From the IMG/VR virus record IMGVR_UViG_2681813236_000006: 9,520 bases of DNA. The stretch is one strand, 5' to 3'. This stretch comes from a virus. Taxonomy: Duplodnaviria; Heunggongvirae; Uroviricota; Caudoviricetes. The stretch's first letter is position 1, and each line of letters opens with the position of its first letter. A program made the position numbers and the translations under genes. The notes below the pieces were generated by a model. That model was not told where the DNA came from. It saw only the letters and a list, made by a program, of their open reading frames with translations, and searched no databases. Of this stretch, positions 2,948 to 3,997 are shown one piece after another.

Positions 2948-3997
2948 GTGCGGGTATTACTTCGACCTGTTCTGGTACCGGAACTCGGGCTGGTGATAGT
3001 TAAGCCGGGCCGTGAATCCATGCCGGTATTCCACAATACCCGGGTACTGGTGGAGCCGGAACCGAAAAGCATGCGTAATCTGCCGTCCGGGGTCGTTCCT
3101 GCCGTTCGCCAGCCGCTGGCGGAGGATAAATCATTACTGCCATTTTTCAGCGACGAACGAGTGATTCGTGCTGCTGGTGGCGCTGGTGCATTGTCTGACT
3201 GGTTACTGCGCCATGTTAAATCCTGCCAGTGGCCACACGGCGATTATCACCATAGTGAAACCGTCATTCACCGTTATGGTACCGGCGCAATGGTGTTGTG
3301 CTGGCACTGCGACAACCAGTTGCGTGACCAGACCTCCGAATCACTTGAGCAACTTGCTCACCAAAACTTGTCAGCATGGATGATTGACGTCATTCGTCAC
3401 GCAATGAATGGCACACAGGAGCGGGAATTATCGCTGGCTGAATTATCCTGGTGGGCGGTCCGCAATCAGGTGGCGGACGCGCTACCGGAGGCGGTATTAC
3501 GTCGTTCGCTGGGGTTGCGTGCGGAAAAAATCCGCTCAATGTACCGTGAAAGCGACATCGTACCGGGAGAGCAGACCGCCACCAGCATACTGAAACAGCG
3601 CACAAAAAATCTTGCGCCGCTGCCTCACGCCCACCAGCAACAGAACCCACCACAGGAAAAGACGGTGGTCAGCATTGCCGTTGATCCTGAGTCTCCGGAA
3701 TCTTTCATGAAACGACCTAAACGTCGCCGCTGGGTTAACGAGAAATACACACGCTGGGTGAAGACACAGCCGTGTGCGTGTTGTGGTAAGCCAGCCGACG
3801 ATCCCCATCACCTGATTGGTCATGGTCAGGGCGGAATGGGGACAAAATCTCACGATATTTTCACGCTACCGCTGTGTCGGGAGCATCACAACGAGCTTCA
3901 TGCGGATCCGCTGGCGTTCGAAGAAAAGCATGGTTCTCAGGTTGATTTAATTTTTCGTTTTCTTGATCACGCCTTTGCAACTGGCGTGCTTGGGTAA
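2948..3997 (+). CDS. DUF968/YdfU-like phage protein with a C-terminal Cys/His-rich HNH-like motif
   Basis: 349-codon ORF. C-terminal C-x-CC…HHLIGHG…C-x-EHH-x-ELH resembles a zinc-binding HNH-like finger. Family assignment is from memory and unverified. Start is ambiguous: GTG 2948 has GGAGG 4 nt upstream; the first ATG is at 3020. Confidence 0.7.
   Translation: MRVLLRPVLVPELGLVIVKPGRESMPVFHNTRVLVEPEPKSMRNLPSGVVPAVRQPLAEDKSLLPFFSDERVIRAAGGAGALSDWLLRHVKSCQWPHGDYHHSETVIHRYGTGAMVLCWHCDNQLRDQTSESLEQLAHQNLSAWMIDVIRHAMNGTQERELSLAELSWWAVRNQVADALPEAVLRRSLGLRAEKIRSMYRESDIVPGEQTATSILKQRTKNLAPLPHAHQQQNPPQEKTVVSIAVDPESPESFMKRPKRRRWVNEKYTRWVKTQPCACCGKPADDPHHLIGHGQGGMGTKSHDIFTLPLCREHHNELHADPLAFEEKHGSQVDLIFRFLDHAFATGVLG

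What the first reader, a model, noticed from the sequence alone, without database searches (positions are those of the whole stretch)
2948..3997. DUF968/YdfU-like protein: large uncharacterised N-terminal region fused to a C-terminal HNH-like Cys/His finger
The last 80 or so residues carry a convincing zinc-finger or HNH-like nuclease signature, but the preceding 270 residues have no recognisable motif. The gene is conserved next to rusA and Q in lambdoid prophages yet functionally uncharacterised as far as I know. Together with the separate HNH endonuclease and RusA this makes three nuclease-type genes within 3 kb.
Basis: partly seen in the sequence, partly recalled or inferred. Interest (0 to 1): 0.4.

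Follow-up and report, generated by a model that had tools for sequence, protein, structure and literature searches.

The report
YdfU-type prophage HNH nuclease gene
This is an ordinary, widely annotated lambdoid-prophage gene (an 86%-identical copy of E. coli K-12 ydfU) that encodes a probable DNA-nicking enzyme related to two phage nucleases known to work with RecA, and its supposedly featureless front half contains a strictly conserved, previously unremarked zinc-binding module.

Summary
The ORF is real (2948-3997, +, 349 aa, GTG start after a GGAGG). It is 86% identical, with no gaps, to K-12 YdfU, matches Pfam DUF968 (E 4e-77), and is under purifying selection in every part (dN/dS 0.10).

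Pfam DUF968 starts at residue 160. Residues 93-123 carry C-x7-[C/H]...C-W-x-[H/C]-D-N, four metal ligands kept in 34/34 family lineages, on a predicted beta-hairpin plus helix. This module has no Pfam or PDB match. It is also retained in P1 PdcB-type relatives that have lost the catalytic histidines.

Best reading: a metal-dependent nickase acting on recombination intermediates, possibly directed by RecA, beside RusA. Its biochemistry is untested. Modest interest.

The parts
2939..2950 (+). Ribosome-binding site GGAGG (2939-2943), stop codon TAA of the upstream ORF (2944-2946) and the GTG start (2948-2950). The arrangement suggests translational coupling to the upstream 92-aa ORF of unknown function (PHROG 1212).
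   Evidence: Sequence read directly. PGAP calls the same start in strain A35. Homologues align from residue 1.
2948..3997 (+). Whole CDS: a YdfU allele of 349 aa, a DUF968-family protein.
2948..3331 (+). N-terminal domain (aa 1-128): short beta strands and helices leading into a zinc-binding beta-hairpin plus helix. It has no Pfam or PDB sequence match and is covered only by PHROG 11007 (unknown function).
   Evidence: AF2 model pLDDT is 78-95 here. No Pfam hit at E<=10 and no meaningful PDB hit. PHROG 11007 covers aa 2-135. dN/dS is 0.078.
3224..3316 (+). Conserved N-terminal metal-site motif, aa 93-123: C93-Q94 ... H101-H102 ... (strands 105-110 and 113-118) C118-W119-H120-C121-D122-N123. 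Proposed ligands are C93, [C/H]101, C118 and [H/C]121.
   Evidence: Column counts: C93 and C118 29/29; position 101 C17/H11; position 121 H22/C7; W119 28/29; D122 27/29. Among 34 genuine full-length 50%-cluster representatives all four positions are C/H, apart from one alignment ambiguity at position 101. Secondary structure E105-110, E113-118, H119-125.
3335..3517 (+). Helical middle region (aa 130-190) with the conserved 'LSxxELxWWA...LP' segment. The Pfam DUF968 model starts here (aa 160). It is homologous to residues ~41-105 of PhiNM1 Gp16.
3518..3697 (+). Variable Q/P-rich linker (aa 191-250), predicted to be disordered.
   Evidence: pLDDT is 44-69 here and below 50 for residues 228-240. 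Length varies across homologues. It has the highest dN/dS, 0.185.
3707..3763 (+). Basic lead-in KRPKRRRWVNEKYTRWVK (aa 254-272), with P257 nearly invariant (28/29) and K258 invariant. It aligns with the segment that precedes the Ref core.
3764..3994 (+). C-terminal His-Me (HNH) finger domain of the Ref/YbcO/Gp16 type (aa 273-349). Zinc ligands are C276, C279, C310 and H313. H288 is the putative general base. D303, H314 and H318 form the putative catalytic-metal site.
4010..4369 (+). Adjacent RusA Holliday-junction resolvase gene. It is context and a likely functional partner, not part of the protein.
   Evidence: Pfam RusA E 4e-16; PHROG 34.

Best explanation
The gene encodes a YdfU-family protein with three parts.

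1. The C-terminal 77 residues form a zinc-stabilised His-Me (HNH) nuclease domain. It is of the same type as phage P1 Ref, DLP12 YbcO and S. aureus phage PhiNM1 Gp16, and every canonical catalytic and zinc residue is present. It most likely nicks DNA in a divalent-metal-dependent, largely sequence-independent way.
2. A basic RPKRRRW segment and a disordered linker tether this domain to a helical region shared with Gp16.
3. An N-terminal ~128-residue domain is built around a strictly conserved Cys3His-type zinc site. I infer that this domain supplies targeting, either to a DNA structure or to a protein partner.

The two characterised relatives are both RecA-linked. Ref cuts only RecA-bound DNA and D-loops. 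Gp16 binds RecA and needs it in vivo. The gene lies in the delayed-early nin region, next to the RusA junction resolvase and just before Q. The most likely role is therefore to nick recombination or replication intermediates (D-loops, possibly inside RecA filaments) during lytic growth, which would stimulate recombination whose junctions RusA then resolves.

Shown here: gene identity, family membership, predicted fold, residue conservation, homology to Ref, Gp16 and YbcO, synteny and purifying selection.
Inferred: nuclease activity, zinc binding by the N-terminal site, RecA dependence and cooperation with RusA.

My confidence by step: YdfU/DUF968 identity about 0.97; active metal-dependent nuclease about 0.8; N-terminal site binds zinc about 0.8; acts on recombination intermediates about 0.5; RecA-directed about 0.35.
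For: Identity:
- Pfam DUF968 E 4.3e-77.
- 86% identical to K-12 YdfU.
- PHROG 96 'HNH endonuclease' over the full length.

Fold:
- The AF2 model built on a diverse alignment has mean pLDDT 85.8 and about 95 in the finger.
- BFVD hits are short phage proteins named DUF968 or 'RecA-dependent nuclease'.

Homology (hhalign against family alignment A2):
- Gp16 E 2e-9 over 159 columns, Gp16 41-206 = residues 152-334.
- Ref E 2.6e-5.
- YbcO E 1.3e-6.
- Motif spacing is identical to Gp16: C145xxC148-x8-H157...C181REH184-H185-x3-H189 in Gp16 (PMC12817073) against C276xxC279-x8-H288...C310REH313-H314-x3-H318 here.
- Gp16 itself passes the Pfam DUF968 gathering threshold.

Conservation:
- H288 26/29, D303 29/29, H314 25/29, H318 25/29.
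- The N-terminal site is conserved in 34/34 lineages.
- dN/dS is about 0.08 in both terminal domains.

Function of relatives:
- Ref is a RecA-dependent HNH nickase acting in D-loops, with a basic tether (PMC4330346, PMC3973344).
- Gp16 is a nickase in vitro, binds RecA and is toxic in a RecA-dependent way (PMC12817073).

Context:
- DUF968 is next to RusA and/or directly upstream of Q in E. coli, Haemophilus, Ewingella and a further enterobacterial prophage.
- YbcO occupies the same slot upstream of rusA in DLP12.
Against: - No experiment exists on YdfU itself.
- The protein does not reach Pfam thresholds for the Ref family (no hit) or for HNHc_6 (22.5 bits against 26.6). RecA dependence is therefore extrapolated across families.
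- RusA adjacency is absent in Qin, Vibrio and P1-like elements.
- Three lineages, including P1 PdcB, have lost the catalytic histidines yet keep the rest of the protein. Nuclease chemistry is therefore not indispensable to the family.
- PdcB and the lambda nin genes are dispensable for plaque formation (PMC10695390), so any phenotype may be subtle.
Confidence: 0.5

Rival explanations
1. The family's core job is not nucleolytic. The two zinc-finger modules would make a DNA- or protein-binding factor, for example a regulator or adaptor acting at the early-to-late switch, and the HNH chemistry would be auxiliary or vestigial.
For: - The N-terminal zinc site is the only feature conserved in all 34 lineages.
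- Three lineages (P0204, P0220, P0248, and P1 PdcB itself) replace H287/H288/H314/H318 but keep all Cys ligands and the N-terminal motif.
- The gene lies immediately upstream of, or one gene (RusA) away from, a late-gene activator in four contexts: RusA then Q in the window and the Haemophilus phage, Q directly in Ewingella, and Lpa in P1 and P1-like plasmids. In a fifth context, a Vibrio prophage, an unannotated 240-aa ORF lies between DUF968 and the lysis genes.
- One group-7 member is annotated as a transcriptional regulator (PMC5714182).
Against: - The window protein and 31 of 34 lineages retain the full catalytic set.
- The finger evolves under constraint as strong as the N-domain's (dN/dS 0.081).
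- The closest characterised relatives are active nucleases.
- Lying before Q is simply the end of the nin operon, where YbcO, RusA and NinG also sit.
Confidence: 0.15
2. It is mainly a host-directed effector. A Gp16-like nuclease would damage or condense host DNA to shut down host replication and bias the phage towards lytic growth, and would not act as a recombination helper for phage DNA.
For: - Gp16 inhibits S. aureus growth, condenses the nucleoid and raises phage yield about 10-fold (PMC12817073).
- P1 Ref increases ciprofloxacin lethality of lysogens (PMC4713147).
- Homology to Gp16 spans 159 columns.
Against: - YdfU genes persist intact in many cryptic prophages, including K-12 Qin, with no reported toxicity.
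- The gene is delayed-early, not immediate-early, and sits with recombination genes.
- PADLOC has no match, and nothing in the context points to anti-defence.
- Mechanistically this rival overlaps the best explanation. It differs only in the target.
Confidence: 0.2
3. It is a terminase-associated HNH that helps cut concatemers during DNA packaging, as HK97 gp74 does.
Against: - The gene lies in the nin region, about 8 kb upstream of the lambda-type terminase genes, separated from them by Q, a moron region and the lysis genes.
- In the Vibrio prophage a different Pfam HNH protein sits next to the terminase while DUF968 stays in the early region.
- Lambda-type cos terminases do not need an HNH partner (established knowledge).
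Confidence: 0.03
4. It is a selfish free-standing homing endonuclease with no role in phage biology.
For: HNH domains are typical of homing endonucleases, and a second HNH gene lies nearby at 969/1058-1424.
Against: - Architecture and position are conserved across Enterobacterales, Vibrio, Aeromonas and Pasteurellales.
- There is strong purifying selection over all 349 residues.
- No intron, intein or target-site signature is present.
- Nuclease-dead lineages are retained.
Confidence: 0.03

Closest known systems
E. coli K-12 YdfU (b1560, Qin prophage; UniProt P76162), Pfam DUF968 (PF06147)
   Same: 86% identical over all 349 residues with no gaps. Same domain order and same position directly before a Q-type antiterminator. 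Same Pfam family.
   Different: Here RusA lies between the gene and Q, and a ParDE pair replaces relBE/hokD upstream. YdfU has no experimental characterisation.
Bacteriophage P1 Ref, RecA-dependent HNH endonuclease (PDB 3PLW; Pfam RecA_dep_nuc PF16786)
   Different: Ref is 186 aa with a disordered 76-residue basic N-terminus and has neither the zinc-finger N-domain nor the helical middle region. The window protein does not hit the Ref Pfam model. Ref's extra active-site residue H153 lies outside the aligned region. RecA dependence has not been tested for YdfU.
S. aureus phage PhiNM1 Gp16 (Pfam HNHc_6 PF16784), RecA-dependent nuclease (PMC12817073)
   Same: Homologous over 159 columns, covering the helical middle region, the linker and the HNH finger (hhalign probability 96%, E 2e-9). 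Cys/His spacing is identical, including 'CREHHNE'. Gp16 also passes the DUF968 threshold. A RusA gene is also encoded about 3 kb downstream of gp16 in the PhiNM1 early region.
   Different: Gp16 is 223 aa and its N-terminus is NinB/Orf-like by AlphaFold 3. It lacks residues equivalent to 1-150 here and the N-terminal zinc motif. The window protein scores below the HNHc_6 gathering threshold (22.5 against 26.6 bits).
DLP12/phage 82 YbcO (DUF1364; PDB 3G27), 'putative nuclease'
   Different: YbcO is 96 aa, finger only. It has no N-terminal domain, helical region or linker.
Bacteriophage P1 PdcB (347 aa, 'post-doc' gene upstream of lpa)
   Same: Full-length homologue with the same three-part layout and the same N-terminal C...C...LCWHHDN motif.
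   Different: The catalytic histidines are replaced (HH to PY; HHxxxH to CQxxxE) while the four finger cysteines are kept, so it is predicted to be nuclease-dead. It lies in a P1 phage-plasmid, not a lambdoid nin region, and is non-essential.
Lambda NinG/Rap (PF05766) and lambda NinB/Orf (PF05772)
   Same: NinG is also a His-Me finger recombination nuclease encoded late in the nin region.
   Different: No Pfam hit to either family. NinG aligns over only 19 columns around CxxC...H (E 0.005). NinB shows no similarity (E 0.4).

Membership tests
Pfam DUF968 (PF06147) / YdfU family | Score above the curated gathering threshold of the family HMM. | tested here: met
   258.4 bits against a cutoff of 27.8, E 4.3e-77, covering residues 160-346 and the full model 1-171. 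86% identical to K-12 YdfU.
His-Me finger (HNH, beta-beta-alpha-metal) superfamily | Beta-beta-alpha fold of the finger. | tested here: met
His-Me finger (HNH, beta-beta-alpha-metal) superfamily | A general-base His at the end of strand 1, and metal-binding His/Asn/Asp residues in the loop and helix. | tested here: met
   H288 (26/29), D303 (29/29), H314 (25/29) and H318 (25/29) are conserved and all present in the window protein. They are in register with Gp16 H157/H185/H189 and Ref H113/H134.
His-Me finger (HNH, beta-beta-alpha-metal) superfamily | Metal-dependent nuclease activity. | not testable with these tools
   Needs purified protein. No published assay on YdfU was found.
Ref family (Pfam RecA_dep_nuc PF16786) | Match to the family HMM. 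| tested here: not met
Ref family (Pfam RecA_dep_nuc PF16786) | Cleavage that depends on RecA filaments or D-loops. | not testable with these tools
   This is a biochemical property (PMC4330346, PMC3973344) that cannot be inferred from sequence.
Ref family (Pfam RecA_dep_nuc PF16786) | A disordered, highly basic N-terminal tether directly before the core. | tested here: inconclusive
   A basic KRPKRRRW segment (254-261) follows a low-confidence linker (pLDDT 44-69). It is short, however, and is preceded by two folded domains that Ref lacks.
HNHc_6 (PF16784; Gp16 / phiETA Orf20 type) | Match to the family HMM above the gathering threshold. | tested here: not met
   22.5 bits against a cutoff of 26.6 (E 9.5e-5), residues 271-319 only. 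Homology to Gp16 is nonetheless clear by hhalign (E 2e-9).
HNHc_6 (PF16784; Gp16 / phiETA Orf20 type) | A NinB/Orf-like N-terminal domain. | tested here: not met
NinG/Rap (PF05766) | Match to the family HMM, or full-length homology. | tested here: not met
   No Pfam hit. hhalign covers 19 columns only, E 0.005.
Terminase-associated HNH (HK97 gp74 type) | The gene is adjacent to the terminase or portal genes. | tested here: not met
   Terminase genes lie about 8 kb downstream, beyond Q and the lysis genes. In the Vibrio prophage a different HNH protein holds that position.
Treble-clef-type structural zinc finger (proposed for the N-terminal module) | Four Cys/His ligands: two from a loop or knuckle, and two at the end of a beta-hairpin and the start of the following helix. 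| tested here: inconclusive
   Conservation fits. C93 and C118 are invariant. Positions 101 and 121 are only ever C or H, with no C/C combination. Secondary structure also fits (hairpin 105-118, helix 119-125).

The most novel reading that the evidence does not exclude
The N-terminal ~128 residues may be a previously undescribed zinc-finger domain that is the real functional core of the YdfU/PdcB family. It has no Pfam model, no PDB sequence relative, and no match to that part recognised in the structure searches. It could be an ancient, catalytically degenerate duplicate of the HNH finger: hhalign aligns the two in the matching ligand register (C93=C279, C118=C310, C121=H313), but only at P 0.05. 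In this reading the domain recruits the protein to RecA filaments or another recombination or late-switch partner, and the HNH nickase is a detachable accessory that has been lost functionally in P1 PdcB.
Probability: 0.25. Interest if true: 0.55.

Novelty: already known. Interest (0 to 1): 0.3.

Why it matters
YdfU is one of the remaining y-genes of E. coli K-12, and copies of it sit in lambdoid prophages across E. coli, including Stx-converting phages (whole-window matches). It links in sequence and fold to two experimentally defined RecA-linked phage nucleases, Ref and Gp16. That turns 'DUF968' into a concrete hypothesis that can be tested cheaply in the best genetic system available. If YdfU is RecA-directed, then lambdoid phages, P1 and staphylococcal siphophages would all carry versions of one recombination-stimulating nickase built on different targeting domains. 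That would help explain the recurrent HNH + RusA pairing at the end of the nin region. The conserved N-terminal zinc module and the naturally nuclease-dead PdcB clade give ready-made separation-of-function variants. If the hypothesis is wrong, this remains an ordinary accessory prophage gene.

Tried and rejected
1. **Single-sequence internal repeat test.** BLASTP of residues 63-154 against 251-349 was not significant (E 2.6). Profile-profile hhalign gave the expected register but only P about 0.05. Internal duplication therefore stays a hypothesis.
2. **First AF2 run.** The alignment of 30 close homologues gave pLDDT 46 and was discarded. The run on the diverse alignment was used instead.
3. 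**N-terminal-only 'fusion' proteins.** Those in the representative library (P0125, P0142, P0153, P0168, P0187, P0188, P0242) join onto portal, tail-tip, tail-fibre or capsid fragments. I treated them as chimeric assemblies or gene calls, not as domain-architecture evidence.
4. **Short N-only proteins.** P0176 is the front half of a frameshift-split gene (201 + 147 aa). P0195 could not be located. I found no evidence for a stand-alone N-domain.
5. **PDB sequence searches.** The protein, the full-length profile and the N-domain profile gave nothing meaningful.
6. **Pfam scan of 28 N-domain sequences** at E<=10 returned only scattered single chance hits.
7. **Foldseek against PDB** found nothing significant (best E 0.74), although the weak hits were HNH proteins. 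AFDB50 was unavailable.
8. **Genome-collection scan** with the N-terminal 161 aa returned only close Escherichia-type relatives.
9. **NinB/Orf-like N-terminus** (the Curtis 2014 idea for Gram-positive 'DUF968' proteins) was rejected for this protein.
10. **Defence-system role.** No PADLOC match.
11. **RNA elements or unusual signals** in the locus: none found.
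Full report
**1. Observation**

The ORF lister returns an open frame at 2948-3997 on the + strand (349 aa, GTG start). The sequence shows GGAGG at 2939-2943, the upstream ORF's TAA stop at 2944-2946, and then GTG at 2948, a layout typical of translational coupling. The whole window is 99.9% identical to a lambdoid prophage integrated near yccA in E. coli strain A35. There RefSeq annotates the same CDS as 'DUF968 domain-containing protein', flanked upstream by an HNH endonuclease, a hypothetical gene, a ParE/ParD pair on the other strand and a 92-aa hypothetical gene, and downstream by RusA and antiterminator Q.

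Pfam DUF968 matches at E 4.3e-77, but only over residues 160-346. HNHc_6 is sub-threshold. PHROG 96 ('HNH endonuclease') covers the full length, and PHROG 11007 (unknown function) covers residues 2-135.

The protein is 86% identical to K-12 YdfU across all 349 residues with no gaps. A codon-by-codon comparison with K-12 ydfU gives these dN/dS values:

| Region | dN/dS |
|---|---|
| Whole gene | 0.10 |
| N-terminal 128 residues | 0.078 |
| Middle region (129-190) | 0.11 |
| Linker (191-250) | 0.185 |
| C-terminal 99 residues | 0.081 |

The gene is real and every part is constrained. No Rfam family, unusual promoter or terminator pattern, or compositional anomaly lies in the locus.

**2. The C-terminal finger**

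I aligned 29 full-length homologues spanning 26-85% identity, drawn from an exhaustive search of 1.84 billion cluster representatives (3106 hits at E<=1e-3, 103 at E<=1e-30). The conserved pattern is C276 (29/29), C279 (24/29), H287/H288 (25 and 26/29), D303 (29/29), C310 (25/29), position 313 as C or H (24/29), H314 (25/29) and H318 (25/29).

Foldseek against PDB was not significant, though its weak hits were HNH proteins. Foldseek against viral models returned short (~100-125 aa) phage proteins named DUF968 or 'RecA-dependent nuclease'.

Profile comparisons confirm homology in the correct motif register: Ref E 2.6e-5, YbcO E 1.3e-6 and PhiNM1 Gp16 E 2e-9. The HNH assignment is not new. Jablonska et al. 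2017 placed DUF968 and DUF1364/YbcO in His-Me finger group 7, named YdfU, noted RusA and Q as neighbours, and proposed a recombination role (PMC5714182).

**3. Relatives with known function**

P1 Ref is a RecA-dependent HNH nickase. It cuts both strands of RecA-made D-loops sequentially and has a basic disordered N-terminal tether (PMC4330346, PMC3973344).

In January 2026, Gp16 of S. aureus phage PhiNM1 was reported as a nickase in vitro that binds RecA. Its growth inhibition requires recA, and deleting it lowers plating efficiency about 10-fold (PMC12817073). Gp16 is the Pfam HNHc_6 archetype and also passes the DUF968 threshold.

Gp16's motif, C145xxC148-x8-H157...C181-R-E-H184-H185-x3-H189, has the same spacing as the window protein's C276xxC279-x8-H288...C310-R-E-H313-H314-x3-H318. 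The hhalign match runs from Gp16 residue 41 to 206, equal to residues 152-334 here. It therefore includes the helical middle region and the linker as well as the finger. No paper was found that tests YdfU itself.

**4. The N-terminal part is not featureless**

Two of the seven invariant columns of the family alignment lie in this region, C93 and C118. Q94, W119 and D122 are nearly invariant. Position 101 is C in 17 sequences, H in 11 and N in 1. Position 121 is H in 22 and C in 7.

I realigned all 41 representatives of full-length size and set aside seven chimeras or fragments. In the remaining 34 lineages:
- C93 and C118 are present in 34/34.
- Position 121 is H or C in 34/34.
- Position 101 is C or H in 33/34. 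The exception has a His one residue away.
- The (101, 121) combinations are H,C in 7, H,H in 6, C,H in 21 and C,C in none.

Exclusive Cys/His interchange at fixed positions is the usual signature of metal ligands. The absence of C,C suggests a preferred Cys3His or Cys2His2 site, although shared ancestry may explain part of the pattern.

In the model these residues sit on a loop (93-102), a tight beta-hairpin (105-110 and 113-118) and the start of a helix (119-125), with pLDDT 84-95. That is a treble-clef-like layout and the same beta-beta-alpha order as the C-terminal finger.

hhalign of the N-terminal profile against the C-terminal profile puts the ligands in register (C93=C279, C118=C310, C121=H313), but only at P about 0.05. 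Single-sequence BLASTP is not significant. Internal duplication is therefore possible but unproven. No conserved general-base His is present in the N-terminal module (H102 is in only 15/29), so I do not think it is a second active site.

The N-terminal 132 residues have no Pfam hit at E<=10 in any of 28 members and no meaningful PDB sequence hit.

**5. Natural variants**

Eight lineages, including Vibrio and Aeromonas, have lost some C-terminal zinc ligands but keep the catalytic histidines. Three lineages (P0204, P0220, P0248) keep the cysteines but have lost H287/H288/H314/H318.

The second group turned out to be the P1 PdcB type. On ~91-kb P1-like contigs the gene sits directly upstream of lpa, pacA, pacB and c1. 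P1 pdcB itself (347 aa) is annotated as 25% identical to P76162, which is YdfU. Its alignment shows 'PY' in place of 'HH' and 'CQxxxE' in place of 'HHxxxH', with the N-terminal 'C...C...LCWHHDN' intact.

PdcB has no assigned function and is dispensable for plaque formation (PMC10695390, PMC10067587). P1 therefore encodes both a stand-alone Ref and a nuclease-dead long-form YdfU homologue. The N-terminal zinc module is the one feature that no lineage has given up.

**6. Context**

| Source | Gene order |
|---|---|
| Window | DUF968 - RusA - Q |
| Haemophilus phage contig (34% identity) | lambda-P-like - DUF968 - RusA - Q |
| Ewingella | RusA - ANT - DUF968 - Q |
| Further enterobacterial chromosome | RusA - frameshift-split DUF968 - 201-aa ORF - lysis genes |
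| Vibrio | DUF968 - 240-aa ORF - lysis genes; no RusA; a different Pfam HNH protein beside the terminase |
| K-12 Qin | relBE - hokD - rem - ydfU - ydfT(Q); no rusA |
| K-12 DLP12 | ninE - ybcO - rusA - ylcG - quuD |

In DLP12 the 96-aa YbcO finger occupies the slot that the long form holds here. The family spans Escherichia, Klebsiella/Raoultella, Ewingella, Pantoea, Cronobacter, Plesiomonas, Vibrio, Haemophilus and Aeromonas, and is everywhere named only DUF968 or 'putative HNHc nuclease'. PADLOC has no match.

**7. Interpretation**

The best-supported mechanism is a zinc-stabilised His-Me nickase, held by a flexible basic linker to a helical region and an N-terminal zinc-finger targeting domain. 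It would act on recombination or replication intermediates in the delayed-early phase. RecA dependence is a specific, testable possibility, because both characterised relatives have it, and RusA is a plausible downstream partner.

Identity, fold, residue conservation, homology, synteny and selection are shown here. Catalysis, zinc binding at the N-terminal site, RecA dependence and cooperation with RusA are inferred.

Rivals:
- A mainly non-catalytic binding or regulatory role. The PdcB clade and the position before Q or Lpa support it. Retention of, and constraint on, the catalytic set in 31/34 lineages argues against it.
- A host-directed Gp16-like effector. This is mechanistically similar and differs in target.
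- A packaging HNH. Gene position and the Vibrio context argue against it.
- A homing endonuclease. Conserved synteny, conserved architecture and purifying selection argue against it.

**8. Verdict**

The gene is an already catalogued family member, an allele of K-12 ydfU, so novelty is low. What this analysis adds:
- the specific link to Ref and Gp16 and the hypothesis that follows from it;
- the N-terminal zinc module, with no Pfam model, PDB sequence relative or mention in the papers read here, which is the family's most conserved feature;
- the natural nuclease-dead PdcB clade.

Interest is modest (about 0.3).

Noticed in passing
window 1970-2595 (- strand): A ParE toxin / ParD antitoxin pair is inserted in the nin region on the opposite strand, just upstream of the DUF968 gene block. 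K-12 Qin has relBE plus hokD at the equivalent place, and P1 pdcB lies directly after phd-doc. YdfU-family genes therefore repeatedly neighbour toxin-antitoxin modules.
   Followed up: partly
L020 2360-3403 (phage P1 pdcB); L016 6001-7044: P1 PdcB is a full-length YdfU homologue that keeps both sets of Cys ligands but has lost all catalytic histidines. It lies directly upstream of the late-promoter activator gene lpa. P1 thus carries both Ref and a nuclease-dead YdfU-like protein.
   Followed up: partly
family alignment, (P0158, P0186, P0211, P0212, P0222, P0228, P0230, P0239): About eight lineages (Vibrio, Aeromonas and others) have replaced some C-terminal zinc ligands (C279 to T/N/S, C310 to H/R/S) while keeping the catalytic histidines. 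The HNH finger apparently tolerates loss of its structural zinc, whereas the N-terminal site is never lost.
   Followed up: partly
window 969-1424 (+; PGAP start near 1058): A separate small HNH endonuclease (Pfam HNH, PHROG 2118) weakly resembles the Septu PtuB and IscB HNH domains. Its role (homing, packaging or other) was not examined.
   Followed up: no
window 2668-2946 (+): A 92-aa ORF of unknown function (PHROG 1212, no Pfam hit) has its stop codon immediately after the DUF968 ribosome-binding site (GGAGG 2939-2943, TAA 2944-2946), which suggests translational coupling with the DUF968 gene.
   Followed up: no
window 5001-6000: A low-GC stretch (37-39%) downstream of Q encodes an STM1630-family protein (5286-5999; hydrophobic and membrane-protein-like by its sequence). 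It looks like a moron insertion between Q and the methyltransferase and lysis genes.
   Followed up: no
window 6521-7606 (+): An N6/N4 DNA methyltransferase gives a strong match to a type II methyltransferase model, and no restriction-enzyme gene is annotated in the surrounding prophage (strain A35). It is probably an orphan phage methylase.
   Followed up: no
L008 (JAGZPX010000007.1): A contig labelled as a Veillonella parvula MAG carries DNA whose encoded protein is 88% identical to this E. coli-type prophage gene (tblastn). This is most likely a binning contaminant.
   Followed up: no
proteins P0125, P0142, P0153, P0168, P0187, P0188, P0242: Several cluster representatives join the YdfU N-terminal part to portal, tail-tip J, tail-fibre or capsid fragments. 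These look like chimeric assemblies or gene calls from mosaic prophage contigs, and they could mislead domain-architecture surveys.
   Followed up: yes
L023 3001-4042: In one enterobacterial chromosome the YdfU gene is split by a frameshift into overlapping 201-aa and 147-aa ORFs next to RusA. This is an example of prophage gene decay that produces apparent 'N-domain-only' proteins.
   Followed up: yes
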